Origin: Gammaproteobacteria bacterium
GTDB taxonomy: Bacteria > Pseudomonadota > Gammaproteobacteria > Steroidobacterales > GCA-2729495
Direction: 5' to 3'
Assembly: GCA_038214295.1 (NCBI GenBank)
Contig: JBBQSA010000015.1
Span: 174 to 64,173, forward strand
Length of the DNA stretch: 64,000 nt
Below the pieces are notes generated by a model. The model was given only the letters and a program-made list of their open reading frames with translations. It ran no database searches and was not told the origin of the DNA. Position numbers and translations under genes: made by a program. Each line of letters opens with the position of its first letter. Within the stretch, counting starts at the first letter, position 1. Positions 7,774 to 62,520 of the stretch are shown in pieces.

Positions 7774-7848
7774 GGCAGGCAGACTAGCGGCCGTTTTGAC
7801 ACTCTGTCAATTACAGGACAGATGTGAAAACCAGCGCTCGGCCAGGGG

Positions 7849-9051: not shown

Positions 9052-9070
9052 CAGTCGGGTCAATCCGGCA

Positions 9071-9400: not shown

Positions 9401-9556
9401 TTTCAAACCTCGTGACGTTGCGGAATGCACAACGTCACTTGCAGGAATCGTGCCAGCGAATGCACCGGCGACTATCGGCGCCGGTGGCAGGTGGCGAGGT
9501 AGCGAGCGCACCGGCGTGAGGCGCGGGCGCGCCGGGCGCGCCCGCCGTTGGAGCGC

Positions 9557-10453: not shown

Positions 10454-10598
10454 GGGGGCAACTCCTCGGGCAAGGGACGGGATGCCAGTTTCCCATCATC
10501 CTGTTTAGCAAATCGTTCCAATTCAAATATACGGCTTTCTGCCTGGCCGGCAAGCGTGTAACCTCGCTTTATCGTTTAACCGCCAGGAGGCAGCCGCC

Positions 10599-11342: not shown

Positions 11343-11346
11343 CACC

Positions 11347-12798
11347 TCACCCGCCGGACGGTAAATCTGGCCCGTCCGGCGGGTAGCCCTTGCAGGGCCC
11401 GATGCCTGCCGGGAGGACACCCTCCGCCAGCAGCCGCAGGTTCACCGCCGTCCGCACGTAACCGGGATCCAGCAACAACGCCCGGCGCCAGGCCGCCTCA
11501 GCCCGGGGAAGGTCGCACTCGGCAGCCAGGGCCATCCCGAGGTTGTTGAACGCCCGGGCATTGTGGGGCGACTGGGCCACCACGTCCCTCCAGAATCCCA
11601 CCTCGTCCCGGTACACGTCGTTGCGCAGGTGCGTAGCAAGCCCGGCCAGCATCAGTACCGGGGCCAGCGCGACGGTCGCGAAGACCGGATTGCGCACGCC
11701 GAGGCGCTGGATCGCAGCGGCAAGGAGCAGAGCCGGGCCGAGGAGTGCCGCGTAGAGCTGGCGATCGTTGACGAGATCGAGGCGCGCCAGCAGGGAGTTC
11801 GTTGGTGCGAGCCACAGCAGGCACCAGAGCACGGCGAAGGCCGGCAGCGGGTAGCGGCGGAGGTTGCTGAGGGCCATGCCGGTCACGACCACGAGCACCG
11901 CCAGGACGAGCGAACCGTCTGCGTCCAGGATGGTCGATACCGGCAAGGCGGGATCCGCGTTCAGCCGGTCGATGTTCACCAGCTGCCCGAGCAGGTAACC
12001 GAGGCCGTGCAGCTGGGCCACCAGGTTCTCGCCGGCGGAGCGGATGGCCAGGCTGGTCGCCAGGAACTCCCGGTAGGCCGGCAGCGAGAGGCCAGCCCCC
12101 ACGGCGGCGAACAGCAGCAGCCAGTGCACCGCCGAGCGCCGGAGCGCCGCTTGCAGGCTGAATGGCCGGGACACGTCCGCAGCCTCCCACAGCAGCAGCG
12201 CCACCGGCAGGACAGCCACCGTCTCCTTGGTGCCCAGCCCGAGAATCATCAGCAGTGGCGATACGCCGTAAAGGAGCCGGCGATCAGGCCGGCTTCGGCC
12301 TGCCACCCACGCGGCGAGGCTGCCGAGCGCGAAGAAGATGCTCAGGGATGTGGACCGGCCCGAGGCGTAGGTCACCGCTTCGGTCTGGACCGGGTGCAGG
12401 ACAAAGATCAGCGCCGTGGCGAGGGCGAGCCAGGCCGCTGCCGGTGCCGCGTAACCCACCTGCCCCGTCAGCCGCCGGCACAGGTACAGCACGAGCAGGC
12501 CGTTGCCGGCGTGCACGAGGATGTTCACCGCGTGAAAGCCGGCGACGCCAAGGCCGCTGGCATGATTCAGCGCGTAGCTCAGCTTGAGCAGCGGGCGCAT
12601 CCCCGGCATGGAGCGCCACCAGGCCGCGACGTCCTGCACCCGTGGATCCCGGACGATCACGTCCCAGTCGTCGAACTGGAAGCTGGCCTGCAGGGCGTTG
12701 GCGTAGCCAATCACCACCGCCAGCAGCACCAGCACCGCTGGCAGCCAGTGCGGGCCGGTTTCGGCGGCGGTCAGCGTCGCTGGCGCGCGCCCAGGCAC
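11347..12798 (-). CDS. Polytopic membrane protein with C-terminal TPR repeats (TMTC/PMT-like putative glycosyltransferase)
   Basis: 483 aa with a GTG start and about 10 hydrophobic helices. N-terminal FQFDDWDVIVRDPRVQD motif. C-terminal TPRs (AFNNLGMALAAECDLPRAEAAWRRALLLDPGY). Confidence 0.6.
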   Translation of the reverse strand: MPGRAPATLTAAETGPHWLPAVLVLLAVVIGYANALQASFQFDDWDVIVRDPRVQDVAAWWRSMPGMRPLLKLSYALNHASGLGVAGFHAVNILVHAGNGLLVLYLCRRLTGQVGYAAPAAAWLALATALIFVLHPVQTEAVTYASGRSTSLSIFFALGSLAAWVAGRSRPDRRLLYGVSPLLMILGLGTKETVAVLPVALLLWEAADVSRPFSLQAALRRSAVHWLLLFAAVGAGLSLPAYREFLATSLAIRSAGENLVAQLHGLGYLLGQLVNIDRLNADPALPVSTILDADGSLVLAVLVVVTGMALSNLRRYPLPAFAVLWCLLWLAPTNSLLARLDLVNDRQLYAALLGPALLLAAAIQRLGVRNPVFATVALAPVLMLAGLATHLRNDVYRDEVGFWRDVVAQSPHNARAFNNLGMALAAECDLPRAEAAWRRALLLDPGYVRTAVNLRLLAEGVLPAGIGPCKGYPPDGPDLPSGG

Positions 12799-12816
12799 GC
12801 GGGGGTGGTCCGGCGC

Positions 12817-13797
12817 CTAGCGGCCGAACAGCCCCTTCAGGCGCTTGGCGCCTTCCTTCATCATGTCCGTCGGCTTGGTGGCCGTTTCCGGAGCCGCCGG
12901 TGTCTCCGGCGTGGCGCCAGCCGCCGCCTCGCCCACGGCGCGCTCCGCGCCCGCTGCGTCGTCCGTCACGCCCGGCTTCGACTTGCCACCGTAGCGGCTG
13001 CAGAAGTCACGGTACTTTGGCGCTGGCGGCGTCGAGAAGCTGCGCCCGGCGCACTCCCGCTGGGCGATGGGCTGGGCCTGCGCGGGGCACTGCCCGACAA
13101 TGAAGTCGAGGTCGTCAGCCTTGCTGGCATCGCTGCACAGGCGCGCACGCATGGTTTCCGCCTTGGTGCCGCAGAATTTCGCAACCTCGGGCAAGGTGCC
13201 GGCATCGACCATCGGGTCCCCCACCGACTGCCGCTGGGCCACGTCGCGAAAGCCGGCCTTCGTGTTCACCCGTTCGCAGAGCTGCTTCTTGTACTTCGCA
13301 TCGCACTTGCTGGTCGTGAGAATGTACGGCTGCATCGATTCGGCCCCGGACTCGCAGGACTTCGCCGTCATGGCGGCTGACTGGGCCAGCAAAGCCGCCG
13401 TCTGCTTGTCCGGCTGGCTGGCATCGCAGGCGCCGAGCCGTTTGCCGGTGGTTACCATCGTCATGGTGTCGCCATCGGTGGTCATGGTCATCTTCGAGGT
13501 GTAGCTGTCCTTGCCCTGGTAAGTCATTTCGCCGGTGCCGGAACCTTCCGGGCACGTGACCTTGTAGCTGAACTTGCCGGGCGAACTCTTGATATCGGAC
13601 ATCTGGCAACGATCGTCGCCGGCCATGGCCGCCGGGCCCTCCGCGTTCGCCGGCGCGCAGAACTGCCGCTTCTGTCCGGGCATCTTCATGCCGGCCATCT
13701 CCATGCTGGTGGTGGTATCCCAGAGGTTGCCAGGTTGACCCTGGGCAACGGCCGCGGTGGCGGCAAGGAACAGCAGCGTGACGATTGGCAGGCGCAT
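12817..13797 (-). CDS. Secreted DUF3617-like, Met/Cys-rich protein
   Basis: The track ORF is 436 aa, but the ATG at 13797 gives the signal peptide MRLPIVTLLFLAATAAVAQG. N-terminal half: GNLWDTT..C..C..GKFSYKVTCPEGSGTGEMTYQGKDSYTSKMTMTTDGDTMTMVTTGKRLGAC, which matches DUF3617 proteins from memory. The tail is low-complexity. Confidence 0.55.
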   Translation of the reverse strand: MRLPIVTLLFLAATAAVAQGQPGNLWDTTTSMEMAGMKMPGQKRQFCAPANAEGPAAMAGDDRCQMSDIKSSPGKFSYKVTCPEGSGTGEMTYQGKDSYTSKMTMTTDGDTMTMVTTGKRLGACDASQPDKQTAALLAQSAAMTAKSCESGAESMQPYILTTSKCDAKYKKQLCERVNTKAGFRDVAQRQSVGDPMVDAGTLPEVAKFCGTKAETMRARLCSDASKADDLDFIVGQCPAQAQPIAQRECAGRSFSTPPAPKYRDFCSRYGGKSKPGVTDDAAGAERAVGEAAAGATPETPAAPETATKPTDMMKEGAKRLKGLFGR

Positions 13798-13857
13798 GTG
13801 GAATCCCCGTTGGTCCCCGACTTGCGGCAAAGTATATGCCGGGGTGAATGATCCGGC

Positions 13858-14178
13858 ATGAGCGAATTGGAAGAACTCAGGCAGCGTCTGCGGGCCTTTG
13901 CGGCCGAGCGGGACTGGGAGCAGTTCCACACGCCCAAGAACCTGGCCATGGCACTGGTGGCGGAGGCCGGGGAAGTGGTGGAACACTTTCAGTGGCTCAC
14001 TGCGGCGGAAAGCGGCGCCCTGACCCCGGAGCAGCGGGCCGAGGTGGCGCTGGAACTGGCGGACGTCCTGCTCTACCTCGTCATGCTGGCGGACCGGCTG
14101 GGCGTTGACCTCGGGGACGCGGCGCACCGCAAGATCATCCTGAACGAAAAGCGCTTCCCCCGCCCGCCCCGACCCTAG
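13858..14178 (+). CDS. MazG-like nucleotide pyrophosphohydrolase (small all-alpha NTP-PPase)
   Basis: 106 aa: RAFAAERDWEQFHTPKNLAMALVAEAGEVVEHFQWL ... ELADVLLYLVMLADRLGVDL, a typical single MazG domain. Confidence 0.8.
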   Translation: MSELEELRQRLRAFAAERDWEQFHTPKNLAMALVAEAGEVVEHFQWLTAAESGALTPEQRAEVALELADVLLYLVMLADRLGVDLGDAAHRKIILNEKRFPRPPRP

Positions 14179-14186
14179 CCGCCGCG

Positions 14187-14339
14187 TCAGCCGTGGTCGT
14201 CCTGGGAATTCCGCCAGGCCTGCCAGAGCTGGATTCCGGAATCCCAGATGATGGCGCCAAACACGGCAGCCAGGAGGGCCGCCACCAGGATTGCGCAGGC
14301 CTGCACGAGCAGGTCGATGGAGGCGGCGTTCAGAAACAC
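14187..14339 (-). CDS. Possible 50-aa single-TM peptide, translationally coupled to the upstream membrane protein
   Basis: Below the track cutoff. GTG at 14339 overlaps the upstream stop (GTGTTTCTGA). Translation: VFLNAASIDLLVQACAILVAALLAAVFGAIIWDSGIQLWQAWRNSQDDHG, with one clear hydrophobic helix. Confidence 0.25.
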   Translation of the reverse strand: MFLNAASIDLLVQACAILVAALLAAVFGAIIWDSGIQLWQAWRNSQDDHG

Positions 14340-15004
14340 GGCGGAACCTGCTGCAGCGGACGCGCCAGGAATGCCAGCGCGTTGACGACGACGAGCGCGT
14401 AGATGAACCAGGCGCCAGCGCGCCGGTCCACCGTCACGCCCTTGATGCTGCCGGCAATCCCGTAGGCCGGCGCGATTCCCGAAAGCAGCAGGTACTTCAC
14501 ACTGGCGGAGACGCCTGCAAGCAGCGCTGCGAACCCGGGGTCCGACCCCGCCGTGGCCGTGACCAGCTGGTGCAGGAAGTAGTCCTCGCTGCAGTCAAGG
14601 AGCGAGGCGCCGAGCGGCGCCCACATCAGGATCCGACCTGCGCGCTGCCAGTTCCCCGGCAGCCGCAGCGTGAGCAAGCCGAGCAGGCCCGTCAGCAGGA
14701 AGCCGTAGCCAAAGGCGAAGACCATGTCGCCCGGACGGAGCAGGCTGGCAATCGCCGCGCGCTCGTCCAGCGAAAAGGTGCCGAGGATGGCCGCAACCCG
14801 GTCACCGGTAAAAGCGACCTGCAGGCAGGTGAGCTCGGGCAGGCGCTCGCCAAGCACCGCCGCACCCGGACCCATCAGCACGCCCGTGGCGTAGCCGAAG
14901 AGCGCCGCGCCGAAGAGGGTCATCGCGGTGTAGAGCCAGGGGAGCCTTGACGATGTCACGGACCACCTCTTGGTCACCAGGGGCGCGAGCCCGTATTCAA
15001 TCAC
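14330..15004 (-). CDS. Integral membrane protein, unknown family
   Basis: 224-aa ORF with 5-6 hydrophobic helices. GTG at 15004; the ATG at 14923 is an alternative start. Confidence 0.5.
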   Translation of the reverse strand: MIEYGLAPLVTKRWSVTSSRLPWLYTAMTLFGAALFGYATGVLMGPGAAVLGERLPELTCLQVAFTGDRVAAILGTFSLDERAAIASLLRPGDMVFAFGYGFLLTGLLGLLTLRLPGNWQRAGRILMWAPLGASLLDCSEDYFLHQLVTATAGSDPGFAALLAGVSASVKYLLLSGIAPAYGIAGSIKGVTVDRRAGAWFIYALVVVNALAFLARPLQQVPPCF

Positions 15005-15066
15005 AAGACGGGCGCTGGCCGGGCTGGCGGAGCGGACCGGGATCCCCTCGGCTATATTCCCAGACC

Positions 15067-15282
15067 ATGCGCCAGCTCGCCCCTGCCAAGCTCCTGCTCA
15101 GCAAGTGGACCGCCGTCCAGCCTGTCCGCAAGGAGAAGCACTTCATCGTCACGGCCCTGATCCGGGACGAGGAGGAGAAGATCATCGGCTGCTACCTGGA
15201 GGCGGTGCACAGCAAGAAACTGTACGAACTGGACTGGCGGGAGCTGAAGGACTCCGCCAGGTGGCTGCAGGGCTGGCAGTAG
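15067..15282 (+). CDS. Trp-rich small conserved protein (TIGR02450-type, from memory)
   Basis: The internal ATG at 15067 gives 71 aa: MRQLAPAKLLLSKWTAVQPVRKEKHFIVTALIRDEEEKIIGCYLEAVHSKKLYELDWRELKDSARWLQGWQ. This matches the family signature KLL.SKWTAV.P..KEKHF.V...W.EL.D...W..GW. Confidence 0.75.
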   Translation: MRQLAPAKLLLSKWTAVQPVRKEKHFIVTALIRDEEEKIIGCYLEAVHSKKLYELDWRELKDSARWLQGWQ

Positions 15283-16119
15283 TCAGGCCAGCGGACCCAC
15301 GCGCCAGCCGGTCCGGTCGTCGTTCTTCAGGGTCTGCCAGAGCCAGGGCAGCAGCTGGTTCAGCTGACCCTCCAGTCCGAAGGGCGGGTTGACGATGCAG
15401 AGGCCCGAGCCGCGCATGCCATTGAAGGCCTCGATTTCCACCTGCAGCTCCACCTGCAGCAGCTTCGGCAACCCCGTTGCCCTGACCTTGGCGGGGAAGC
15501 GCTCGGCCAGCGGGTGGCGGATCAGCGGGTACCAGAGCAGGTAGACACCGGTGGCCCACCGGCGGTGGCAGGTCTTCAGCAGTTCGACCACGCCGACGAA
15601 GTCCTCCTTCACTTCGTAGGCCGAGTCCATCAGCACCACGCCGCGCCGCTCCTGCGGAGGCAACAGGGCGGGCAGGCCCTCGAAGACGTCCCGCCCGTGG
15701 ATATGCACCCGGGGGTCCCGGCCAAAGTTCCGGTGCAGCTTCGCGTAGGCGGCCGGGTGCAGTTCCAGCAGTTCCAGGTGGTCGTCGGGCCGGAGCAGGT
15801 GCCGGGCCACCTGGGGCGAGCCCGGGTACAGGTAGATGTCACTCCCCACCCTGTTCAGCGCCCGAACGGCGGCCAGGTAGTCCTTAAGTTCCGGCGGCGG
15901 GGACGGCGCGGCCAGCACCCGCTTGATGCCGCCTGCGAACTCTTCGTTCTTCCGGGCTTCGTGGCTCCGCAGGTCATAGATGCCGGAGCCCGCGTGGGCG
16001 TCCAGCACCCGCAGAGGCGTGTCCTTTTTCTGCAGCGCGCGGATCGCCAGCGCCAGCACCGAGTGCTTCAGGACGTCGGCGTGGTTACCGGCGTGGTAGT
16101 CGTGCTGATAGCTCAACAT
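15283..16119 (-). CDS. rlmJ: 23S rRNA (adenine2030-N6)-methyltransferase RlmJ
   Basis: The ATG at 16119 gives [19 protein letters not shown]..., near-identical in pattern to the E. coli RlmJ N-terminus. Length is about 278 aa. Confidence 0.85.
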
Positions 16120-54804: not shown

Positions 54805-54878
54805 CCGGGGGGCGTCGACCGGTCCGGGCGCCTCTGTTAGCGTTGCCTGTCGCCGACCAGCAACGCACCGGAGCCCCC

Positions 54879-55487
54879 ATGAACCAGACCGCAGCGCTTA
54901 CCGCAGGGACCGAAGCCGATCCCCAGCGCTTCTTCTGGTACGGCGTGTGGGTGGTGATCATGGTGGCCTCGGGCCTGCCGCTGCTCGGCCTCGTCCGCCT
55001 GCCAAACCTGCTGGGCTACCTGCCCACGCTGGTCATCCACGAGATGGCGGCGTTCCTGTACTTCGGCCACACCTTCTTCAGCAACATCTGGGCTCTGCAG
55101 ATCCGCCTCACCCAGCCTCCCGCCATCGGCGTCTGGGCCCGCGGGTTCCTCCGCAAGCTGTGCCTGGGCGTCACGGCGCCGACCGCCGTGATCACCCCGC
55201 TCTTCGGCCTGATGCTGATCGAGGACTGGGGCGGCCTCCTGAACGTGCCCTGGGCCTGGGACGCCTACTTCGTGTTCTGGCTCATGGCGGGCTTCAGCGT
55301 GGTGCCGGACGTGATCCGCTACGGCCGTAACCGCAACGCCGGCGATCCCCGCCATGGCCTGAAGAGTGGTGGCGTGCGCGGCATGCTCGCCCTGGTCGCC
55401 ACGCTCTATATCCTGATCTGGTGCATGATCATGAAGGGCAGCCTGTTCGCGGGGCCGGTGCAGGCGCTGCTCGGCGTCGGGAGCTGA
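54879..55487 (+). CDS. Integral membrane protein (DUF2269-like)
   Basis: ATG at 54879 behind GGAG, with 4-5 hydrophobic helices. The family assignment is from memory and is weak. Confidence 0.45.
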   Translation: MNQTAALTAGTEADPQRFFWYGVWVVIMVASGLPLLGLVRLPNLLGYLPTLVIHEMAAFLYFGHTFFSNIWALQIRLTQPPAIGVWARGFLRKLCLGVTAPTAVITPLFGLMLIEDWGGLLNVPWAWDAYFVFWLMAGFSVVPDVIRYGRNRNAGDPRHGLKSGGVRGMLALVATLYILIWCMIMKGSLFAGPVQALLGVGS

Positions 55488-55540: not shown

Positions 55541-56689
55541 CTACGGATGGAATCCCGACGGGCCCGGCGGCGCGCCGAGCCGGCTGCGGAACTGCGTGGT
55601 GTCCTGGGCGTTCACAGCACCGTTACAGTTCATGTCCGCCTTGTTATAGGTCGGGGCAACGCTGGGCTGTCCCAGCTGGGCGCGGAAGAGCGTCGTGTCC
55701 TGGGCATTTGTGACCCCGTTGCCGGTGCCCGGGCCCAGGTCGCCGTCGCAGAGGTTTCCATAGCCGTCGCCGTCGCTGTCGCACTGGCTGGCGTTGGCCA
55801 GCCCGCTGCAGTTGTCGATGCCATTAAGCACGCCGTCCCCATCGCTGTCGACCGAGGGCACCAGGTGGCCGTTGCGAAACACGAAGAAGTAGTTGTTCAG
55901 GATTGCGTTGGCGCCACCGAGCGGATTGGCCAGCGTCGCCACATCTCCCGGCAGGCCCGTGACCAGCGAAAAGCCCGCGAGGGCAGTGTACGCGTCGGCA
56001 TCGGACGTGCCGTAGCGCACGCGCAGGTAGAAGTCGCCGGTATTGCCCGCTGAGTACAGGACGATCTGGGTGGCAATCTGGGGGTTGATGTTGAAGTCAT
56101 CATCGATCCACGTCACCGCGAAGGCCGGGACGCGGCCCGCTGCCGTGTAGGGTTCAATGGGATCCGCGGTGGCGCGGAAGTAACTGGAGCCGCCGCCAAA
56201 CGGGGCAAACTGCGTGATGGGCCCGGACGGCACCGCCAGGTTGGCGTAGAACGGCGCGATGAAGGGCCGCGTGACGGTGCCGTTCGCCGTGATGATCTGT
56301 TGCAGGGCCGAAATACTGGCCGCCGCCGAAAAGGTGGTGCCGGGGAGCGCGGATCCGAAGGTGACGAAGCCGTTGTTGTTGATGAACAGCGAGTCATAGG
56401 ACGTCGTGCCGATCTTGATCGTGAAGCCCAGCTTGGTTTCTCCACTGGAGTTTCCCGTGAACGTGACGCCGCAGGATCCGGGCAGTTGCGACAGGGCGCC
56501 GCAGACCGTGGCGTCGGACGTGAGGACCCAGGAGTCCCCGGCCGAGGTCACGTCGCCGGTCTCGCCGCCAAAGTCGATCGAGACACGGGGCCGGGCGTGC
56601 ACCTGGGGCGCCAGTCCCAGAAGGCCGATGACGGCCAGCGCGGCCAAGGCCGCTGTCCAGCGGCTGCAAAGGGTTGTGTGGGGCTGCAT
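55541..56689 (-). CDS. Secreted protein with thrombospondin-type-3 (Ca-binding) repeats and a dockerin-like C-terminal module
   Basis: 382 aa with the signal peptide ...LAALAVIGLLGLAPQVHA. Repeat region: DSDGDGVLNGIDNCSGLANASQCDSDGDGYGNLCDGD. Then two copies of ..NAQDTT.FR..LG. Confidence 0.65.
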   Translation of the reverse strand: MQPHTTLCSRWTAALAALAVIGLLGLAPQVHARPRVSIDFGGETGDVTSAGDSWVLTSDATVCGALSQLPGSCGVTFTGNSSGETKLGFTIKIGTTSYDSLFINNNGFVTFGSALPGTTFSAAASISALQQIITANGTVTRPFIAPFYANLAVPSGPITQFAPFGGGSSYFRATADPIEPYTAAGRVPAFAVTWIDDDFNINPQIATQIVLYSAGNTGDFYLRVRYGTSDADAYTALAGFSLVTGLPGDVATLANPLGGANAILNNYFFVFRNGHLVPSVDSDGDGVLNGIDNCSGLANASQCDSDGDGYGNLCDGDLGPGTGNGVTNAQDTTLFRAQLGQPSVAPTYNKADMNCNGAVNAQDTTQFRSRLGAPPGPSGFHP

Positions 56690-56778
56690 GGAGGAACCTC
56701 CGGATCTGGTAGTGGCTGGTTAGCGGTACTCTAATTAGCACAGAATATGGGCCCGGCGGAGCCTGGATTATCCTCGCC

Positions 56779-58821
56779 ATGCGTTATGTCGCCTTCATCA
56801 GCTACAGCCACGTGGACGCCGACTGGGCCCGCTGGCTACACCGGGCGATAGAGCGTTACCGTCTCCCTGCGTCTCTACGGGAGCGCGCCACGCAGGCGGG
56901 CGCCCGGGCCAGTGCCCTCACGCCCGTGTTCCTGGACCGGGAAGAGCTCTCCTCGTCCGCCGACCTCGCCACGACGGTGCGGACCGCGCTCGAACAGTCT
57001 GCCGCGCTGATTGTCGTCTGCTCGCCCGCTGCGGCCCGGTCCCGCTGGGTCAACGAGGAGATCCGCAGCTTCAAGGCCCTGGGCCGGGAAAGCCGCATCC
57101 TGTGCCTGATCGTGGCCGGAGAGCCCGGCGGCGGCGTTGCCGCGGACGACTGCTTCCCGGCGGCCCTGCGCTACCAGGTGGTGGACGGTCAGGTGACTGA
57201 ACTGCCCGGCCCCGAACCCCTCGCAGCGGATGTCCGTCCGGGCGCCGACCATCGGCGCGATGCCAAGCTCAAGCTCATCGCCGCACTCCTGGGCGTCAAC
57301 CTCGATGACCTGCGGCAGCGGGAGCAGGCCCAGCGGCAGCGGCGCCTGGCGATCATCGCCGGGGCGACGACCGTCGGCTGTGTGGTGCTGGGCGCCCTGG
57401 CGCTCACCGCGTGGCTTGCCCGCAATGAAGCCGAACGGCAGCGGCAGGTCGCCGTGCGGAAATCCCTCACCGCCGAGCGCACGACAGAGTTCATCGTGTC
57501 GCTCTTTGCGGTGTCGGATCCGAGCGAAGCCCGCGGGAATGTCATCACCGCCCGGGAAATTCTCGACCGGGGTGCACGGCAGATTGACGCCGGGCTGGAG
57601 GGCGAGCCCATCGTGCGGGCCGAACTCGCCACGACGCTGGGCCAGGTCTACTACGGCCTGGGACTGTACACGCAGGCATCAGAACTCCTGGACAAGGGCC
57701 GCTCAGCCGCGGTCCAGGACCCGCGGCTGCTGGGTCGCCAGGCCGTCGCCCTGGCGGATGTGGCCGCGGCCCAGGGCGACTACGCCAGGGCGGAGGCGTT
57801 GTATGCCGAGGCTGAAGGCCACACGGCTGAAGCCAGCCCCGTGGACCTGCAGACCGAGGGCCGCGCGCTGATCGGGCGCGGCGATACCGCAAGCAGGCAG
57901 GAGCGCTTTGCGGACGCCCAGCAATTCTTCGACAGGTCGTTGGCACTTGCCCGGGAGCCCGGTGCCCCAGCCGATCTGGCGGCCCGTGCACTCGAGGGCA
58001 TTGCCCTTGTGAAGGTCTATGCGGGCGACACCTCGGCGGCACTCGACTGGTACGGCAAGGCACTTGCCGAGCGCACACGTGTTTCAGGCAGCAATCATCC
58101 CAACGTGGGGCAGATCCTGGCCAACATGGGCGCCACGACCTATCTCCGCGGCGAGAGTGCGCAGGCCGAAGGCTACATGCTGCGGGCGCTGGCCGTGGAC
58201 AGGCTCGTGCTGGGCCCGGAGCACCCGGATGTCGCGATCAGCATGAATACCCTGGGACGATTGCGCCTCGAGCAACGGCACTTCGCGGAGGCACGGCAGA
58301 TGCTTGCCGAGTCAGTCGCCATCCTTGACCGGAAGCTGCCGCCGGACCATGAAGATCTGACCTTCCCCCTGAGCAATCTCGCCCTCGCCGCGCTGGGCCA
58401 GGGAGATGCCGGCGCGGCAGAGCCCTTGCTTGCACGGAGCCTCCGGGCAGCCGTCGCGAACGGGCAGGACGGCAACCGGGGGATGGTGCTTACGTACCTG
58501 GCCGATCTCGAGTGCCGGACTGACCGCGCGCCGCAGGCTCTCGATCGTCTCGCCACGGCCCGGCCCCTGGTCCAGGCGCAGTACCCGGACGATCCCTGGC
58601 GGAACGCCCTGGTGGACAACGTGGAGGCCGGCTGCCTGATGGAACTCAAGCGCTACCGGGAGGCCGAGGTGCTGGCCACCCGCAGCCTGCCAGTGCTGCT
58701 GAAGCGGTGGCCCGCAGCGTCGCTGTACGGCGCCGATGCCCTGGAACGTTCCCGGCGGCTCTACCAGCGGACCGGCAATGGCCCCAAACTCGGCGAAATC
58801 GCCCGGCTTGCCGGAAAATGA
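56779..58821 (+). CDS. TIR-domain protein with one transmembrane helix and a C-terminal TPR array
   Basis: 680 aa. TIR pattern: MRYVAFISYSH, VFLDREEL, SAALIVVCSPAAARSRWVNEEI (WxxE with candidate catalytic Glu). Linker: PLAADVRPGADHRRDAKLKLIAALLGV. TM: LAIIAGATTVGCVVLGALALTAWL (about nt 57346-57417). About 450 aa of TPR-like repeats follow (..LGQVYYGLGLYTQASELL.., ..MNTLGRLRLEQRHFAEARQML..). Confidence 0.75.
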   Translation: MRYVAFISYSHVDADWARWLHRAIERYRLPASLRERATQAGARASALTPVFLDREELSSSADLATTVRTALEQSAALIVVCSPAAARSRWVNEEIRSFKALGRESRILCLIVAGEPGGGVAADDCFPAALRYQVVDGQVTELPGPEPLAADVRPGADHRRDAKLKLIAALLGVNLDDLRQREQAQRQRRLAIIAGATTVGCVVLGALALTAWLARNEAERQRQVAVRKSLTAERTTEFIVSLFAVSDPSEARGNVITAREILDRGARQIDAGLEGEPIVRAELATTLGQVYYGLGLYTQASELLDKGRSAAVQDPRLLGRQAVALADVAAAQGDYARAEALYAEAEGHTAEASPVDLQTEGRALIGRGDTASRQERFADAQQFFDRSLALAREPGAPADLAARALEGIALVKVYAGDTSAALDWYGKALAERTRVSGSNHPNVGQILANMGATTYLRGESAQAEGYMLRALAVDRLVLGPEHPDVAISMNTLGRLRLEQRHFAEARQMLAESVAILDRKLPPDHEDLTFPLSNLALAALGQGDAGAAEPLLARSLRAAVANGQDGNRGMVLTYLADLECRTDRAPQALDRLATARPLVQAQYPDDPWRNALVDNVEAGCLMELKRYREAEVLATRSLPVLLKRWPAASLYGADALERSRRLYQRTGNGPKLGEIARLAGK

Positions 58822-58840
58822 TGCGAGGGAGAACTCTGCC

Positions 58841-60625
58841 GTGACGGACGAAGGCCAGAAAGTCGGGGTGGCACCGTCGCTGAAGTTACCGCTCATGGTC
58901 GGCGTGGTCGGGCACCGTGACCTGTGTGATCACGAACTGCCCGCCATCCGCGCCGCCGTCGAGGCGCTGCTTCGTGCCCTCCGCGATCAGGAGCCGGACG
59001 TACCGGTGCAACTGCTCTCACCCCTGGCCGAGGGAGCCGATCTCCTGGTTGCCGAGATCGCCCTCGACCTGGGTCTCCAGGTAATCGCGCTCCTGCCTTA
59101 TGCCAGCGCCCAGTGCCGGAACGACATCGCCCGCGACGCGGACCGTCTGGTTTTTGACCGCCTCGTCCAGCACGCCGAAGTCCTGCAGCTGCCGCTACCC
59201 GAGGGGCTGGATGCCGGGGCGCTGACGAGGCCCGGCCCGGCCCGGGACCGGCAGTTTCAGGAAGCAGGGTTCCTGGTGGCCCGATACAGCTCGCTGCTGA
59301 TCTCGATCTGGGACGGCCAGGACACCGGGCATGCGGCGGGAACCGCACGGGTCATCGAGTACCGCCGGCGCGGTCTCGCGCCCGCCGAACCGGCCAAGCC
59401 GACCTTCGATGCGCTGCTTGCAGCTTCGGACAACGACTGGATCTATGACATCCGCAGTTCCCGCCGATCGGCGGCAGCGGGGAGCGACACCGCGAGTCCG
59501 GAAATCATCGGCTTTGTCTGCGGCGGACGGTGCCAGGGCGGCGTCCAGGCGGGCCTGCCCGCGGAACTGGTCACGCTCCTCAGCCGGACGGCGGATTTCA
59601 ACCAGGATGCGGCGGAATACGGCGACCGCATCGCCGCCGGTGGACACCGGCTCGCACTGCCCAGCCCCTATGCAATTCCCGAAACACTCCTCTATGTTGA
59701 CCGACTGTTTGTTGCGGCCGACTGGCTGGGCGTCCATTTCGGCCGGTGCTTTACCCGCGCGCTCCGCGCCCGCTACACCCTCTGGGCAATTCTTGCGCTG
59801 CTCCTGCTGGGCCTGGACAGGCAGGCGGATGAAAGCCTTGGTCTTGCCAACATCCTGGTCGTGCTGCTGGTCTTCGGCACAGGCTGGCTGCTGGCATTCT
59901 GGGCGCACCGCCGCAGCTGGCACCGGCGATTCCTCAACTACCGGGCCCTGGCCGAGGCGCTGCGTGTGGATTTCTACTGCGAACTGGCCGGGGTCCGTGC
60001 CCAGTTCGGGGGCGAGTTTTCCCACGCGGCCTTCCTTCAACGGCAGGACTTCGAGCTCGAGTGGATCCGTGCGGCCATGCGGGCCGTCAGTCTCCGCCGT
60101 GCGTTGTATCCCCGGGCGGTCCTGCCGCACGGTTTTGAACACGCCTATGCGGCCTGGATTGGCGATCCGGACCCGGTGAATGGCGCGGGACAGCTGCACT
60201 ACTACCGGCAGCGCGGGCGGTCCCTCGAACGGCGCCAGAGGATTGTCGAAGCCATATCCACCACGATGCTCTTCAGCGGACTGGCGCTGGGGCTTGTGCT
60301 GGCGGTTGCGGCCCTCCTGTCCTTCGTGAGCGAGGTGCGGCTCGGCGGCCACCTGCGGGAAGGACTGGTCCTGGTGCTCGCGCTCGTGAGCGTGTACGGC
60401 GCGATCTTCGAGATCTACCTGGGCGAGAAGGCGGATCGCGCCCTGATCCGCCAGTACCGCTACATGGAATCGCTGTTCAGCATCGCGGCCCGGGAGCTGG
60501 CCTCGGCCCGCTCGCTCCCCGACAAGCTGGAGATCCTGCGGTCACTGGGTCACGCCTGTCTCGCCGAGCATGCGCAGTGGATTCTCGCGCATCGGGACAA
60601 GCGAATTGACGGGCTGCGCTGGTAG
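58841..60625 (+). CDS. SLOG-like Rossmannoid (putative nucleotide-sensor) domain fused to two SLATT/DUF4231-like 2TM modules
   Basis: GTG at 58841 lies behind GAGGGAG, 20 nt after the TIR gene stop (alternative ATG at 58895). N-terminal pattern: MVGVVGHRD / LSPLAEGADLLVAEIAL / VIALLP / SLLISIWDGQDTGHAAGTARVIEY. The C-terminal half has two helix-TM-TM-helix units (YTLWAILALLLLGL + LANILVVLLVFGTGWLLAFWA, then MLFSGLALGLVLAVAALL + LVLVLALVSVYGAIFEIYL). Domain names were assigned by eye. Confidence 0.55.
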   Translation: MTDEGQKVGVAPSLKLPLMVGVVGHRDLCDHELPAIRAAVEALLRALRDQEPDVPVQLLSPLAEGADLLVAEIALDLGLQVIALLPYASAQCRNDIARDADRLVFDRLVQHAEVLQLPLPEGLDAGALTRPGPARDRQFQEAGFLVARYSSLLISIWDGQDTGHAAGTARVIEYRRRGLAPAEPAKPTFDALLAASDNDWIYDIRSSRRSAAAGSDTASPEIIGFVCGGRCQGGVQAGLPAELVTLLSRTADFNQDAAEYGDRIAAGGHRLALPSPYAIPETLLYVDRLFVAADWLGVHFGRCFTRALRARYTLWAILALLLLGLDRQADESLGLANILVVLLVFGTGWLLAFWAHRRSWHRRFLNYRALAEALRVDFYCELAGVRAQFGGEFSHAAFLQRQDFELEWIRAAMRAVSLRRALYPRAVLPHGFEHAYAAWIGDPDPVNGAGQLHYYRQRGRSLERRQRIVEAISTTMLFSGLALGLVLAVAALLSFVSEVRLGGHLREGLVLVLALVSVYGAIFEIYLGEKADRALIRQYRYMESLFSIAARELASARSLPDKLEILRSLGHACLAEHAQWILAHRDKRIDGLRW

Positions 60626-61419: not shown

Positions 61420-62520
61420 GTGAATCCATTCATACCGGTGACCCCGGATTCCAGCCGCTCTGGGCTGTCGTGTTTTGGAGAGGTCCTCCAGGGGCGGCTG
61501 GCCCGTCATCCCGGCATCGGACGCGCCTTCCTGATCCAGGAGAACCAGCTGGCGAAGGCAGAGAATGACCGCCTGATCGTGGATGGCCTGATGGCACTGG
61601 CCAGCTTCATGCCATTCGGACCCGGGGACTATGTGTTCATCGACCGGTCCACGGAGGCGGGCACGCTGAATGGCCGGCTGGGGCTGCTGCAGGCGGCCTG
61701 TGCGCCGATCGGTTTGCCGCTCCGGAATATCGTCTACGTCTCGCAGACCGGGGGACGCGTTTGCCCCCCCACGCGGCCTGCTGGCGCCAACGCGCCCCAC
61801 TGGATGTTCTTCAACAGCTACCTGATGAAGTTCGCGCGCACCTACACGAACAGGGATGACCCCGCCCCGGGGGTCGATTGCGCCGGCAAGGTGCTCTGCA
61901 TGAACAACAAGATCAGGCCCCACCGGATCGCCGTTGCCCTGATGGCAAGGCGCCTGTGCCAGGAGCGGCTGATACTTTCCTGGCGCGGCAAGACCAGCAT
62001 CTATTCCCTGGAGCAGGCGACCACCGAGTTCCGCAAGAACTTTCCCTCGCTGTCGGGAGAGTCCGTCATGCTCGAAGAGCGTTCACTCGATGTGGACGCC
62101 GATCTCGGCGACGTGTACGGCGTGCCAATGGGCCCGGCCACCGAGAGCTTCCTGCACATTGTCACCGAAAGTGATTACCTCCCCTGGTCGGACCGCTTCA
62201 CGGAAAAGCTCCTCAAGCCGGTCGTGGCCGGCCGGCCCTTCCTGGTCTTTGGCCCTCCCCGCATCCTGCAAGTCTTCCGGTCACTCGGCTTCCGGACGTT
62301 TGCCGACGTGTTCGACGAGTCCTACGACCAGACCGAGGAACCCGAGGCGCGGCTCGTGGCCATCATGCGGACCCTGGAGGACCTGCTGCAGCGGGACTAC
62401 CGCGCCGTGCTCGAGCAGTGCGCCGCTGTCTGTGTGCACAACAGGCGGCACCTGAGGTTCGGTCTCGAGGACAGGCTGCTCGGCATGCTGGACCGGCGTC
62501 TTGGGGAAATCACGGGCTGA
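61420..62520 (+). CDS. Hypothetical protein, possible glycosyltransferase-like C-terminal domain
   Basis: 366-aa ORF with a GTG start. The only weak cue is VTESDYLPWSDRFTEKLLKPVVAGRPFLVFGPPRILQVFRSLGFRTF, reminiscent of the TEK..KP...G.P motif of some fucosyl/sialyl-type transferases. Confidence 0.35.
   Translation: MNPFIPVTPDSSRSGLSCFGEVLQGRLARHPGIGRAFLIQENQLAKAENDRLIVDGLMALASFMPFGPGDYVFIDRSTEAGTLNGRLGLLQAACAPIGLPLRNIVYVSQTGGRVCPPTRPAGANAPHWMFFNSYLMKFARTYTNRDDPAPGVDCAGKVLCMNNKIRPHRIAVALMARRLCQERLILSWRGKTSIYSLEQATTEFRKNFPSLSGESVMLEERSLDVDADLGDVYGVPMGPATESFLHIVTESDYLPWSDRFTEKLLKPVVAGRPFLVFGPPRILQVFRSLGFRTFADVFDESYDQTEEPEARLVAIMRTLEDLLQRDYRAVLEQCAAVCVHNRRHLRFGLEDRLLGMLDRRLGEITG

What the first reader, a model, noticed from the sequence alone, without database searches (positions are those of the whole stretch)
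56779..60625. TIR-TM-TPR protein plus SLOG-like/2xSLATT-like membrane protein: candidate Thoeris-like signalling defence pair with an undescribed architecture
Seen: gene 1 opens with a TIR pattern (YVAFISYSH, FLDREEL, ALIVVCSPAAARSRWVNEEI). It continues with one hydrophobic helix and about 450 aa of TPR repeats. Gene 2 starts 20 nt after its stop, at GTG 58841 behind GAGGGAG. It encodes a Rossmann-like module (MVGVVGHRD / LSPLAEGADLLVAEIAL / VIALLP / LLISIWDGQDTGHAAGTARVIEY) fused to two pairs of transmembrane helices. Established: in Thoeris, TIR proteins (ThsB) turn NAD+ into cyclic-ADP-ribose-isomer signals. These signals are read by the SLOG domain of ThsA. SLATT 2TM modules were predicted by comparative genomics (Burroughs, Aravind and co-workers, 2015) to be membrane-perturbing effectors linked to SLOG, SMODS and TIR domains. 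Inference: gene 1 is the sensor and signal generator, and gene 2 is a signal-gated membrane effector (abortive-infection logic). I do not recognise this combination as an experimentally characterised system. All domain calls are by eye.
Basis: partly seen in the sequence, partly recalled or inferred. Interest (0 to 1): 0.85.

Follow-up and report, generated by a model that had tools for sequence, protein, structure and literature searches.

The report
Membrane TIR sensor with SLOG-SLATT partner
Two adjacent genes encode a membrane-anchored TIR enzyme with a TPR sensor arm and a membrane protein that joins a nucleotide-sensing SLOG domain to two pore-type SLATT modules; this is probably an untested variant of the Thoeris family of bacterial TIR signalling defences, with an unusual receptor-like layout.

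Summary
Gene 1 (56779-58821) is TIR + one TM helix + TPR solenoid, with an invariant catalytic-type Glu94. Gene 2 (GTG 58841-60625) is a DprA/YpsA-like SLOG fold fused to two SLATT-like 2TM modules.

Gene 2 belongs to a very large family of about 580-aa proteins with no model of its own in Pfam, NCBIfam or PADLOC. There are 8020 clusters at 50% identity.

TIR genes lie within three genes of its homologs in about 21 of 56 loci, across Gammaproteobacteria, Firmicutes, Eremiobacterota, Armatimonadota, Burkholderiales plasmids and an archaeon. A stand-alone copy of its SLOG domain follows a TIR-caspase pair on a Bacillus plasmid.

The link is facultative. Three of three sampled gene-1 homologs lack gene 2, and other gene-2 homologs pair with nSTAND1-TM-TPR proteins that carry the same TM-TPR module.

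Gene 1's constant neighbour is a divergently encoded secreted TSP3-like protein. There is no defence-island context.

The logic is already known. TIR+SLATT is type VII Thoeris, and a non-homologous "4TM SLOG" effector was catalogued in a 2025 preprint. Verdict: a new variant of a known kind, mechanism inferred and untested.

The parts
55541..56689 (-). Divergently transcribed gene for a 382-aa secreted protein: N-terminal signal peptide, then TSP type-3 / dockerin-like Ca-binding repeats. It is the constant neighbour of gene 1 homologs and a possible third component.
   Evidence: Pfam TSP_3 4e-5 and Dockerin_1 3.5e-4. A homolog lies in the same divergent position in 12 of 12 loci with a close TIR-TM-TPR homolog and enough flank. 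The signal peptide was read from the sequence.
56690..56778 (.). 89-nt divergent intergenic region between the secreted-protein gene and gene 1; presumed promoter region.
   Evidence: No sigma-70 consensus was found, which says little in a 68% GC genome.
56779..58821 (+). Gene 1: a 680-aa TIR-TM-TPR protein.
   Evidence: It is 100% identical to P0289 on a 64,709-bp NCBI contig.
56779..57288 (+). TIR domain (aa 1-170), with the motif S88-R-W90-V-N-E93-E94. E94 is invariant in 47 homologs.
   Evidence: Pfam TIR_2 E 2.5e-14 and ThsB_TIR E 1e-8. Invariant columns. Ortholog alignment. Alpha/beta secondary structure with high pLDDT.
57346..57414 (+). Single transmembrane helix (aa 190-212) inside a continuous helix 175-245.
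   Evidence: Hydropathy 2.21. Conserved in orthologs. Flanking K+R averages 6.0 on the N side and 3.2 on the C side over 47 homologs, which suggests TIR inside and TPR outside. AF2 helix.
57550..58818 (+). TPR solenoid (aa 258-679; kinesin-light-chain / LGN-like repeats).
   Evidence: Pfam TPR_12 E 1.8e-38. PDB sequence hits to KLC1/2. Foldseek hits to APPBP2, LGN, OGT and KLC. The TM + juxtamembrane + TPR module is collinear with aa 683-1111 of the nSTAND1-TM-TPR protein of L005 (33% identity, E 2e-53).
58825..58831 (+). Shine-Dalgarno-like GAGGGAG, 9 nt upstream of the GTG start of gene 2.
   Evidence: In orthologous loci the gap between gene 1 and gene 2 ranges from a 4-nt overlap to about 60 nt.
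58841..60625 (+). Gene 2: a 594-aa SLOG + 2 x SLATT-like membrane protein.
58892..59545 (+). SLOG-superfamily (DprA/YpsA-like) Rossmannoid domain, aa 18-235. Conserved motifs: G21-x-x-G24-H25-R26-D, A63-x-G65-A-D67, W157-D-G159, G167-T168.
   Evidence: Foldseek: DprA 5mll E 1e-3, prob 1.0, TM 0.44-0.46; ShosA 8zva; TM1055; YgdH; TRPM2/4/8. Pfam YAcAr in 16 of 80 and DprA in 1 of 80 family members. PADLOC ShosA in 3 of 80. H25 and W157 are invariant across 80 members at 22-51% identity.
59681..60100 (+). First SLATT-like 2TM module (aa 281-420; TM segments about 312-326 and 335-353).
   Evidence: DUF4231 E 0.054 at aa 339-376 and SLATT_3 E 0.015 at aa 289-374 in the window protein. The same region is hit in 8 of 10 homologs scanned singly. 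Hydropathy; AF2 helices 281-325 and 331-358.
60173..60619 (+). Second 2TM module (aa 445-593; TM segments about 478-496 and 505-527). SLATT_1-like in homologs.
   Evidence: SLATT_1 covers aa 448-575 of homolog P0133 (profile 4-122 of 122, E 5.5e-5) and aa 427-484 of P0155. AF2 helices 451-496 and 503-530. A profile comparison of module 1 with module 2 was not significant.

Best explanation
The two genes form a Thoeris-like nucleotide-signalling module with a receptor-like sensor.

Gene 1 is a single-pass membrane protein. Its TIR domain faces the cytoplasm. Its large TPR solenoid lies on the other side of the helix, most likely in the periplasm, where it may engage the divergently encoded secreted TSP3-like protein.

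A stimulus perceived through the TM-TPR module would activate the TIR domain (catalytic Glu94). The TIR domain would convert NAD+ into an ADP-ribose-derived messenger.

Gene 2 is co-transcribed 20 nt downstream. Its cytoplasmic SLOG domain would bind that messenger, and its two SLATT-type 2TM hairpins would assemble or open to change membrane permeability. The outcome would be growth arrest or cell death.

Shown here: domain identities, conserved catalytic and ligand-loop residues, tight gene spacing, and recurrent TIR / gene-2-family neighbourhood across phyla.

Inferred: topology, NADase and signal chemistry, SLOG as the receiver, membrane permeabilisation, and the biological trigger (phage or another envelope-level threat).
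For: TIR is above Pfam cut-offs and E94 is invariant.

The SLOG fold is supported. SLATT modules are supported.

There is a 19-nt spacer with an RBS, and the gap is 0-60 nt in 10 orthologous loci.

TIR genes lie within 3 genes of gene-2 homologs in 19 of 56 loci by my gene caller, plus 2 more by ORF search. The frequency is 19/268 genes near against 3/214 far (odds ratio 5.4, Fisher p = 0.003, not corrected for phylogeny).

The association recurs with unrelated TIR architectures. Examples: Syntrophomonadaceae (L068), L074, Eremiobacterota (L062), Armatimonadota (L056, TIR-WD40), a Thermoplasmatales archaeon (L058), L039, and Caballeronia plasmids where a 'DUF4231 protein' is followed by a TIR protein.

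A 162-aa stand-alone copy of the gene-2-type SLOG domain (E 3.6e-26 to the family profile) directly follows TIR + caspase genes on B. subtilis plasmid pBS72.

One homolog sits beside Hachiman and a reverse transcriptase, next to a RelA/SpoT-RyR protein, which is another nucleotide-signal maker.

Precedents exist. TIR to SLOG (types I, III, IX) and TIR to SLATT with cADPR (type VII) are described in bioRxiv 10.64898/2025.12.03.692087.
Against: The pairing is not obligatory. About 60% of gene-2 homolog loci have no TIR nearby. L013 and L014 keep gene 2 in the same flank but lack the TIR-TPR gene. Three of three gene-1 homologs sampled independently have no gene 2.

Many gene-2 homologs instead sit beside nSTAND1-TM-TPR proteins. 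Their cytoplasmic head has no recognised signal-making enzyme.

There is no defence island, mobile element, tRNA or GC anomaly in the window. The window protein has no hit in phage or plasmid collections.

PADLOC finds no Thoeris or other system.

The window protein's own SLOG and SLATT matches are below family cut-offs. The closest structural relatives of the SLOG domain are DNA-binding DprA proteins rather than ThsA.

No biochemical data exist. The architecturally analogous 'SLOG and 4TM' systems gave no defence in E. coli.
Confidence: 0.5

Rival explanations
1. Direct coupling without a diffusible messenger. Gene 2's real partner is the shared TM-TPR receptor module. The receptor and the SLOG-SLATT protein form a membrane complex, and the cytoplasmic head (TIR or STAND NTPase) acts on or through gene 2 by contact. 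TIR might then be an NAD+-depleting effector in its own right, and SLOG-SLATT a second, parallel effector or regulator.
For: The TM + juxtamembrane + TPR part of gene 1 is collinear (33% identity, E 2e-53) with the C-terminal half of the nSTAND1-TM-TPR proteins that flank gene-2 homologs in at least 8 loci. Nearly all partners are single-pass or membrane-anchored proteins. TIR-TPR single proteins (E. coli TIR-II) defend on their own (PMC11350192).
Against: Soluble TIR proteins with no TM or TPR also neighbour gene-2 homologs (L068, L058, Caballeronia). The gene-2-type SLOG occurs as a free 162-aa protein in a TIR-caspase operon. The SLOG loops are the most conserved part of the family (H25 and W157 invariant), as expected for small-ligand binding.
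Confidence: 0.15
2. Same biochemistry but not anti-phage. This would be a chromosomal, vertically inherited envelope or cell-cell sensing pathway of Steroidobacteraceae. Several TIR-TM-TPR paralogs, each with its own secreted TSP3-like partner, would report extracytoplasmic cues. The SLOG-SLATT protein would act as a regulated channel rather than a suicide pore.
For: The locus sits in conserved chromosomal synteny (secreted protein, TIR-TM-TPR, gene 2) in many Steroidobacteraceae MAGs, among housekeeping genes. GC content is uniform. TIR-TM-TPR plus secreted-protein pairs occur without gene 2, and twice in one sample. Charge bias suggests an extracytoplasmic TPR. Secreted or PEP-CTERM-like proteins also accompany the nSTAND variant.
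Against: Typical conflict-system companions surround homologs: trypsin, C13/caspase-fold peptidase, FGE-sulfatase, STAND NTPases, a PIN/MazE toxin-antitoxin pair, Hachiman, a reverse transcriptase. Partners are swapped at one chromosomal slot, which is characteristic of arms-race loci. Every experimentally studied bacterial TIR-SLOG or TIR-SLATT pair so far is anti-phage.
Confidence: 0.2
3. Adjacency without functional coupling. Gene 1 works with the secreted protein only, and gene 2 is an independent membrane protein that happens to lie downstream in one subclade.
For: Gene-1 homologs lack gene 2 in 3 of 3 independent samples. Only about 7 of about 43 gene-1 homologs on contigs of 10 kb or more share a contig with a listed gene-2 homolog. 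This comes from matching contig lengths between and is a lower bound.
Against: TIR neighbourhood recurs independently in at least six distant lineages with different TIR architectures. The gene spacing is operon-like.
Confidence: 0.08

Closest known systems
Type VII Thoeris (ThsB TIR + SLATT effector ThsH; canonical cADPR signal). Yirmiya et al. 2025, bioRxiv 10.64898/2025.12.03.692087
   Same: A TIR gene sits next to a SLATT-type membrane effector. The proposed logic is the same: a TIR-made ADPR-derived messenger leads to membrane disruption.
   Different: ThsH is described only as a SLATT-domain protein, with ligand pockets between SLATT protomers (AF3 model). Gene 2 has a separate N-terminal SLOG domain and two SLATT-like modules. 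Gene 1 is a 680-aa TM-TPR protein rather than a short soluble ThsB. Its TIR has no BLAST similarity to the type VII TIRs listed in Table S1. I did not compare gene 2 with a ThsH sequence.
Putative '4TM SLOG' / 'SLOG and 4TM' Thoeris effector (same preprint, Tables S1 and S2; Streptomyces sp. GKU 895 and Ca. Nitrospira nitrosa systems gave no defence in E. coli)
   Same: The architecture class is the same: a SLOG-type domain plus four TM helices encoded next to a TIR gene.
   Different: It is not homologous. The effector in their locus Ga0163163_10000077 (L075:2829-4028, 399 aa, LOG-like 'GGGNST' motif, four short TM helices) gets no hit from the gene-2 family HMM. hhalign gives probability 0.3%. 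The TIR partner there is a soluble 463-aa protein with a C-terminal TIR.
Type I / III / IX Thoeris (SLOG-containing effectors ThsA, ThsD, ThsJ)
   Same: A SLOG domain acts as the presumed receiver of a TIR product.
   Different: The output domains there are SIR2, another domain, or TIR, not membrane modules. Gene 2's SLOG is closest to DprA, ShosA and YAcAr. No ThsA chain appears in the top 50 Foldseek hits.
SLATT / SLOG network predicted by Burroughs, Zhang, Schaffer, Iyer and Aravind 2015 (NAR 43:10633). Cited from my own knowledge; the paper could not be opened with these tools.
   Same: SLATT means 'SMODS and SLOG-associating 2TM effector'. A SLOG-SLATT link with TIR as the nucleotide-signal generator is the prediction of that work.
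   Different: No Pfam or NCBIfam model derived from that work reaches its cut-off on the window protein. The fixed SLOG + 2 x SLATT fusion of about 580 aa, and its pairing with TM-TPR receptors, is not something I can attribute to that paper.
E. coli TIR-II system (TIR + TPR in one protein), Nat Commun 2024, PMC11350192
   Same: TIR fused to TPR. TIR active-site residues are required for anti-phage activity in that system.
   Different: No TM helix is described between TIR and TPR, and no SLOG-SLATT partner. Homology to gene 1 was not tested.
Ternary and STAND-based conflict systems of Kaur, Burroughs, Iyer and Aravind 2020 (eLife, PMC7159879)
   Same: The companion set is the same: STAND NTPases with TPR or WD40, TIR, trypsin and caspase-fold peptidases, the FGE-sulfatase domain, and SLATT as the predicted nucleotide-responsive pore.
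   Different: That paper, as far as I searched it, does not mention nSTAND1 or a TIR-TPR term. It does not describe a SLOG-2xSLATT protein beside TM-TPR receptors.

Membership tests
Thoeris (TIR-signalling anti-phage systems) | TIR-domain protein with the catalytic glutamate | tested here: met
   TIR_2 54.3 bits (cut-off 28) and ThsB_TIR 35.8 bits (cut-off 21.2). E94 in SRWVNEE is invariant in 47 homologs.
Thoeris (TIR-signalling anti-phage systems) | Adjacent effector gene with a ligand-sensing domain and a toxic output domain | tested here: met
   SLOG fold plus SLATT-like modules in gene 2, 20 nt downstream. Function is inferred.
Thoeris (TIR-signalling anti-phage systems) | TIR and effector conserved as an operon across genomes | tested here: inconclusive
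   TIR lies within 3 genes in about 21 of 56 gene-2 loci, across phyla. But 0 of 3 gene-1 homologs carry gene 2, and L013/L014 have gene 2 without a TIR gene.
Thoeris (TIR-signalling anti-phage systems) | Location in defence islands / enrichment next to known defence genes | tested here: not met
   The window neighbours are a TonB receptor, a sulfotransferase, GH5, a YgjP peptidase and DJ-1/PfpI. There are no tRNA genes and GC content is uniform. Only one distant homolog lies next to Hachiman and a reverse transcriptase.
Thoeris (TIR-signalling anti-phage systems) | Recognition by existing defence-system models | tested here: not met
   PADLOC: ThsB models give only E 0.004-0.04 for gene 1. 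Gene 2 gets nothing except ShosA at E 0.048. Across the family, ShosA hits 3 of 80 and CBASS 2TM/4TM effector models hit 1 of 80 each. PADLOC-DB is from 2023 and predates Thoeris types V-XI.
Thoeris (TIR-signalling anti-phage systems) | Phage-triggered production of an ADPR-derived signal and phage protection | not testable with these tools
   This needs cloning, phage challenge and LC-MS.
SLOG superfamily (N-terminal domain of gene 2) | Rossmannoid alpha/beta fold matching DprA / LOG / YpsA structures | tested here: met
   Foldseek: DprA 5mll/4ljl/3uqz/3maj, ShosA 8zva, TM1055 1rcu, YgdH 9us2, TT1465 1wek and TRPM channels. The DprA, ShosA and TM1055 hits have probability 1.0; YgdH (0.30-0.38), TT1465 (0.33) and the TRPM channels (0.15-0.51) are weaker. 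The best E is only 1e-3, with TM 0.44-0.46 normalised to the target.
SLOG superfamily (N-terminal domain of gene 2) | Match to a curated SLOG-family sequence profile | tested here: inconclusive
   The window protein has none at E <= 1 in Pfam. Among 80 family members, YAcAr hits 16 (best E 1.2e-6) and DNA_processg_A hits 1. The single member inspected was below the cut-off (14.1 against 28.2 bits).
SLATT (2TM effector) clan | Two-TM hairpin with flanking helices matching SLATT / DUF4231 profiles | tested here: met
   Met at family level. NCBIfam: SLATT_1 39 of 80 (best 4.8e-10), SLATT_3 48 of 80. Pfam: DUF4231 50 of 80, SLATT_1 29 of 80, SLATT_3 26 of 80. RefSeq names the Caballeronia homolog 'DUF4231 domain-containing protein'. 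The window protein itself is sub-threshold (E 0.015-0.054).
   Module 2 is hit by SLATT_1 and module 1 by DUF4231/SLATT_3 in P0133 and P0155, all below cut-offs. A profile comparison of module 1 with module 2 was not significant (probability 2.8%).
'4TM SLOG' putative Thoeris effector (Yirmiya et al. 2025) | Homology to the effector encoded next to the TIRs of their cluster 2691454909 | tested here: not met
   I fetched their locus Ga0163163_10000077. The 399-aa SLOG-4TM protein gets no family-HMM hit, and hhalign gives probability 0.3%. Gene 1's TIR has no BLAST hit to their two tested TIRs.
Type VII Thoeris (TIR + SLATT ThsH) | Homology of gene 2 to ThsH and of gene 1's TIR to type VII ThsB | tested here: inconclusive
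   TIR: no BLAST hit to two type VII TIR domains from Table S1. No ThsH sequence was available, so that comparison was not made.

The most novel reading that the evidence does not exclude
This is a bacterial 'Toll-like receptor' layout, an outside-in pathway. A periplasmic TPR ectodomain, working with a dedicated secreted Ca-binding TSP3-like protein, senses an extracytoplasmic event. A cytoplasmic TIR head, or in sister loci a STAND NTPase head on the same TM-TPR chassis, converts it into an intracellular signal. That signal is read by a very large, so far unnamed family of SLOG-2xSLATT membrane proteins. It would be a new class of transmembrane TIR signalling in prokaryotes, with interchangeable heads and a common membrane effector. 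It need not be restricted to phage defence.
Probability: 0.2. Interest if true: 0.85.

Novelty: new variant of a known kind. Interest (0 to 1): 0.58.

Why it matters
If the pair works as proposed, it adds an effector class to the TIR/Thoeris repertoire: SLOG fused to two SLATT modules.

That class is far more widespread than the window suggests. There are 8020 clusters at 50% identity, and 1223 at E <= 1e-30. It has no model of its own in Pfam, NCBIfam or PADLOC. It was not among the effector types I could trace in the largest TIR survey to date.

The sensor side is the more unusual part. The TIR is tethered to the membrane with its repeat domain probably outside the cell. It is always paired with a secreted protein, and its cytoplasmic head is exchangeable for a STAND NTPase. 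That would make it possible to test whether bacteria use TIR enzymes for transmembrane (envelope-level) sensing, the topology used by animal Toll-like receptors.

If it turns out to be an ordinary cytoplasmic abortive-infection pair, it is simply one more Thoeris type.

Tried and rejected
- Sequence searches of gene 2 and of its 88-member profile against PDB gave nothing meaningful: a designed repeat protein and the histamine receptor at E > 0.1.
- I looked for the Ca. Nitrospira nitrosa '4TM SLOG' system through its TIR sequence. The exact protein is not in the collection, and the best relative (L067) has no such neighbour. A metagenome scan with another Table S1 TIR then succeeded.
- I considered that gene 2 is the preprint's '4TM SLOG'. 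Rejected: no homology.
- I considered that the two 2TM modules are a detectable internal duplication. Not supported.
- I considered that the roughly 200-aa N-terminal head of the nSTAND1-TM-TPR partners is a divergent TIR. Rejected by hhalign (probability 0.4%). It has no Pfam hit and no PDB hit. My recollection that its 'FxSSPGDVxxER' motif resembles DUF4062 is an untested lead.
- The promoter and terminator consensus scan was uninformative.
- Burroughs et al. 2015 could not be opened.
- Foldseek with full-length gene 1 returned only TPR proteins in the top 50 listed, so the TIR fold rests on Pfam and on the model's secondary structure.
- tblastn of the window gene 2 against plasmids and phages found nothing. 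Only more central family members found plasmid relatives.

Full report
**1. What is in the sequence**

The window is essentially one 64.7-kb NCBI contig. Gene 1 is 100% identical to P0289, which lies on a 64,709-bp contig. The source is a 68% GC gammaproteobacterium. The nearest relatives of both genes are Steroidobacteraceae / 'Gammaproteobacteria bacterium' MAGs.

Both ORFs exist as described. Gene 1 runs 56779-58821. Gene 2 most plausibly starts at GTG 58841, which is 9 nt after GAGGGAG and 20 nt after the last base of gene 1's stop. Codon-position GC (GC3 0.80-0.82) and hundreds of full-length homologs show that both are real genes.

**2. Gene 1**

- Pfam gives TIR_2 (E 2.5e-14, above cut-off), ThsB_TIR (1e-8) and strong TPR_12/TPR_10.
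- There is one hydrophobic helix at aa 190-212. It is conserved in orthologs.
- The AF2 model (pLDDT 87.1) shows an alpha/beta head (aa 1-170), one uninterrupted helix at 175-245 that contains the TM segment, and a TPR solenoid at 258-679. The solenoid resembles KLC, LGN, OGT and APPBP2.
- In 47 homologs at 48-74% identity, S88, W90, V91 and E94 of 'SRWVNEE' are invariant and E93 is nearly so. E94 occupies the position of the TIR catalytic glutamate. That assignment rests on established knowledge of the W-x-x-x-E TIR motif.
- Flanking charges suggest that the TIR domain is cytoplasmic and the TPR domain extracytoplasmic. K+R averages 6.0 on the N side and 3.2 on the C side over 47 sequences. 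This topology is an inference.

**3. Gene 2**

No curated model reaches its threshold on the window protein. The only hits are DUF4231 E 0.054, SLATT_3 E 0.015 and PADLOC ShosA E 0.048.

The AF2 model is confident (pLDDT 81.8, pTM 0.81). It shows a Rossmann-like domain at aa 18-235, followed by two long helical hairpins (281-358 and 451-530), each with flanking helices. The four TM segments lie at about 312-326, 335-353, 478-496 and 505-527.

Foldseek against PDB places the N-domain with DprA, ShosA, LOG-like TM1055, YgdH and TT1465, and the TRPM N-termini. All are SLOG-superfamily members. The scores are modest: best E 1e-3, and TM 0.44-0.46 normalised to the target. Probability is 1.0 for the DprA, ShosA and TM1055 hits and lower (0.15-0.51) for YgdH, TT1465 and the TRPM channels.

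An exhaustive profile search shows that the family is very large: 8020 clusters at 50% identity with E <= 1e-3, and 1223 with E <= 1e-30. The top 150 are almost all 560-620 aa and match end to end.

I scanned 80 diverse members (22-51% identity to the window protein) one by one:

| Library | Family | Members hit (of 80) | Best E |
|---|---|---|---|
| Pfam | DUF4231 | 50 | 2.3e-7 |
| Pfam | SLATT_1 | 29 | 7.9e-7 |
| Pfam | SLATT_3 | 26 | 4.6e-6 |
| Pfam | YAcAr (YpsA-related SLOG) | 16 | 1.2e-6 |
| Pfam | DprA (DNA_processg_A) | 1 | 0.0024 |
| NCBIfam | SLATT_1 | 39 | 4.8e-10 |
| NCBIfam | SLATT_3 | 48 | 3.7e-7 |

In P0133, SLATT_1 covers the second module, while DUF4231 and SLATT_3 cover the first. 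A direct profile comparison of the two modules was not significant.

The most conserved positions of the whole family are in the SLOG loops: G21, G24-H25-R26, A63-x-G65-x-D67, W157-D-G159 and G167-T168. H25 and W157 are invariant. This is what one expects of a small-ligand site.

The second SLATT call is the weakest part.

**4. Neighbourhoods of gene-2 homologs**

I examined 56 non-redundant loci from a scan of GTDB genomes plus look-ups by exact protein. Genes were called with my own GC3-based caller, which reproduced the stop positions of the database calls on L002.

- A close TIR-TM-TPR ortholog lies immediately upstream, on the same strand, in 10 loci. The gaps range from a 4-nt overlap to about 60 nt.
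- A different TIR-TM-TPR family lies two or three genes downstream, after a trypsin-like gene, in six or seven loci.
- Other TIR proteins flank distant homologs in Eremiobacterota (L062), Armatimonadota (L056, TIR-WD40), a Thermoplasmatales archaeon (L058), L039, Syntrophomonadaceae (L068) and L074.
- Overall, TIR genes are within three genes in 19 of 56 loci, plus two more found at ORF level. The frequency is 19/268 genes near against 3/214 farther away (odds ratio 5.4, Fisher p = 0.003). The loci are not phylogenetically independent.
- In annotated records, Caballeronia megaplasmids carry 'DUF4231 domain-containing protein' (577 aa; family-HMM E 3e-48 over both the SLOG and SLATT parts), then 'toll/interleukin-1 receptor domain-containing protein', then a WD40 protein.
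- B. subtilis plasmid pBS72 carries TIR, then a caspase-family protein, then a 162-aa protein that is a stand-alone copy of the gene-2-type SLOG domain (E 3.6e-26; it has the same GxTGH, AKGAD and IAIWNG...GGTG motifs). That places this SLOG clade inside an operon with the architecture of type IV Thoeris.

**5. The link is facultative**

Other gene-2 homologs are flanked by:

- nSTAND1-TM-TPR proteins of about 1150 aa, in at least 8 loci;
- a C13 (caspase-fold) peptidase with N-terminal TM helices;
- an FGE-sulfatase protein plus an unknown protein;
- an S9 peptidase;
- RyR-domain proteins and a K+-channel/TrkA/RyR protein;
- an AAA_16-WD40 STAND protein;
- a RelA/SpoT-RyR protein beside Hachiman and a reverse transcriptase;
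- nothing recognisable.

L013 and L014 keep gene 2 in the same flank as L001 (polyphosphate kinase, M23 peptidase) but lack the TIR-TPR gene.

In the reverse direction, three gene-1 homologs (51-54% identity) sampled on long contigs have no gene 2. Matching contig lengths between the two hit lists suggests that most TIR-TM-TPR homologs are not next to a gene-2 homolog. This is a heuristic lower bound.

**6.

(a) The invariant neighbour of gene 1 is the divergently transcribed gene at 55541-56689. It encodes a signal-peptide-bearing protein with TSP type-3 / dockerin-like repeats. A homolog sits in that position in 12 of 12 loci with enough flank, including the three that lack gene 2.

(b) The TM + juxtamembrane + TPR part of gene 1 (aa 204-620) is collinear with aa 683-1111 of the nSTAND1-TM-TPR partner in L005 (33% identity, E 2e-53). 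One 'receptor chassis' therefore carries either a TIR head or a head made of an unknown ~200-aa domain plus nSTAND1, and both versions sit next to gene-2 homologs. Almost all partners are membrane-anchored.

Homologs of the secreted protein also precede the nSTAND variant in L031, L033 and L040. In L005 a signal-peptide / PEP-CTERM-like ORF lies between the nSTAND gene and gene 2.

**7. Context**

- The window has no tRNA genes.
- There is no GC anomaly.
- The ten flanking ORFs scanned with Pfam are ordinary: a TonB receptor, a TPR-sulfotransferase, DUF2231, GH5, a YgjP peptidase, DJ-1/PfpI and an RCC1-repeat fragment, plus two with no Pfam match.
- PADLOC recognises no system.
- The window protein has no tblastn hit in 72,556 plasmids or 50,697 phages.

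**8. Literature**

Yirmiya et al. (bioRxiv 10.64898/2025.12.03.692087, December 2025) define Thoeris types I-XI.

- Type VII is TIR + SLATT (ThsH), signalling with canonical cADPR.
- Types I, III and IX use SLOG-containing effectors.
- Their list of 29 configurations includes '4TM SLOG'. Two such systems gave no defence in E. coli.

I retrieved one of their 4TM-SLOG loci (L075). Its effector is a 399-aa LOG-like protein with four short TM helices, and it is unrelated to gene 2.

E. coli TIR-II shows that a TIR-TPR protein can defend on its own (PMC11350192).

Kaur et al. 2020 describe the same companion set (STAND, TPR/WD40, trypsin, caspase, FGE-sulfatase, TIR, SLATT) in conflict systems.

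The SLOG-SLATT-TIR connection goes back to Burroughs et al. 2015. I cite that paper from memory because it could not be opened.

**9. Interpretation**

The best-supported model is a Thoeris-like relay. The membrane-tethered TIR makes an NAD+-derived messenger, and the SLOG-2xSLATT protein reads it and perturbs the membrane. Confidence is about 0.5.

Rivals are:

- direct membrane-complex coupling through the shared TM-TPR chassis;
- the same biochemistry used for non-phage envelope or cell-cell sensing;
- mere adjacency without functional coupling.

The system is not a member of any defined Thoeris type by sequence. It matches the family's logic but fails the defence-island and model-recognition tests. 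I therefore file it as a new variant of a known kind.

The receptor-like topology, the obligate secreted partner, the head swapping and the size of the unnamed gene-2 family keep it above ordinary.

Noticed in passing
window 55541-56689 (-); L001, L002, L009-L011, L019, L041, L049, L050, L088-L090: A secreted TSP type-3 / dockerin-like protein is divergently paired with every close TIR-TM-TPR homolog (12 of 12 loci), including those that lack gene 2. It may be a ligand or co-sensor of the TPR domain.
   Followed up: partly
L005:3273-6746 and equivalents in L022, L023, L031, L033, L040, L051, L053: nSTAND1-TM-TPR proteins next to gene-2 homologs share gene 1's TM-TPR module (33% identity, E 2e-53). 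They carry an unassigned ~200-aa N-terminal domain with an invariant 'IFxSSPGDV...R ... L..RLG ... GTE.E' motif. It has no Pfam, TIR or PDB match. From memory it resembles DUF4062; that was not tested.
   Followed up: partly
L092 (B. subtilis plasmid pBS72, NZ_KX711616.1) 4629-6483: A TIR gene, a caspase-family gene and a 162-aa stand-alone gene-2-type SLOG protein lie in a row. This is a type IV Thoeris-like operon with an extra SLOG protein that could bind, buffer or degrade the signal.
   Followed up: partly
L091 (Caballeronia sp. SBC2 plasmid pSBC2-4, NZ_CP049320.1) 7040-14440: A RefSeq-annotated 'DUF4231 domain-containing protein' (577 aa, a gene-2 family member) is followed by a 539-aa TIR protein and a 1190-aa WD40 protein with a TM segment. 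This is a cultured-organism example suitable for experiments.
   Followed up: partly
L073:1-12633: A gene-2 homolog sits between a reverse transcriptase + HamA/HamB (Hachiman) and a RelA/SpoT-RyR protein plus a ClpB-like AAA protein. It is the only clear defence-island context found, and it has an alarmone-synthetase-type partner instead of TIR.
   Followed up: no
L056, L057, L068, L073: RyR-domain proteins recur beside distant gene-2 homologs in three phyla: a small RyR protein, a K+-channel/TrkA_N/RyR protein, an AAA/RyR protein and a RelA_SpoT/RyR protein.
   Followed up: no
L013, L014 versus L001: The flank is the same (polyphosphate kinase, M23 peptidase, gene-2 homolog), but the TSP3-like and TIR-TPR genes are absent. 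This looks like a natural deletion of the sensor with retention of the SLOG-SLATT gene.
   Followed up: no
L001:5478-7569; L049:2586-6402; L044, L046, L051, L060: The TIR-TPR gene is split into two ORFs in L001. Gene-2 homologs (and, in L049, the TIR-TPR gene too) are broken into several ORFs in some MAGs. These could be frameshifts, pseudogenes or long-read assembly errors.
   Followed up: no
L024-L026, L029, L030, L046 (for example L024:6578-7966): A Peptidase_C13 (caspase-fold) protein with three N-terminal TM helices lies immediately upstream of gene-2 homologs, in a block DXP synthase / B12-radical SAM / C13 / gene 2 / MFS transporter.
   Followed up: no
L002:2258-4270; L017:10364-12487 and 13203-15317; L088 and L089 (same sample): Several TIR-TM-TPR paralogs occur per genome or locus in Steroidobacteraceae. 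This is compatible with many sensors feeding one effector.
   Followed up: no
window 61420-62520 (+) and 54843-55487 (+): Two conserved-looking ORFs of 366 aa and 214 aa flank the locus and have no Pfam match. The genes downstream of gene 2 are not conserved between orthologous loci.
   Followed up: no
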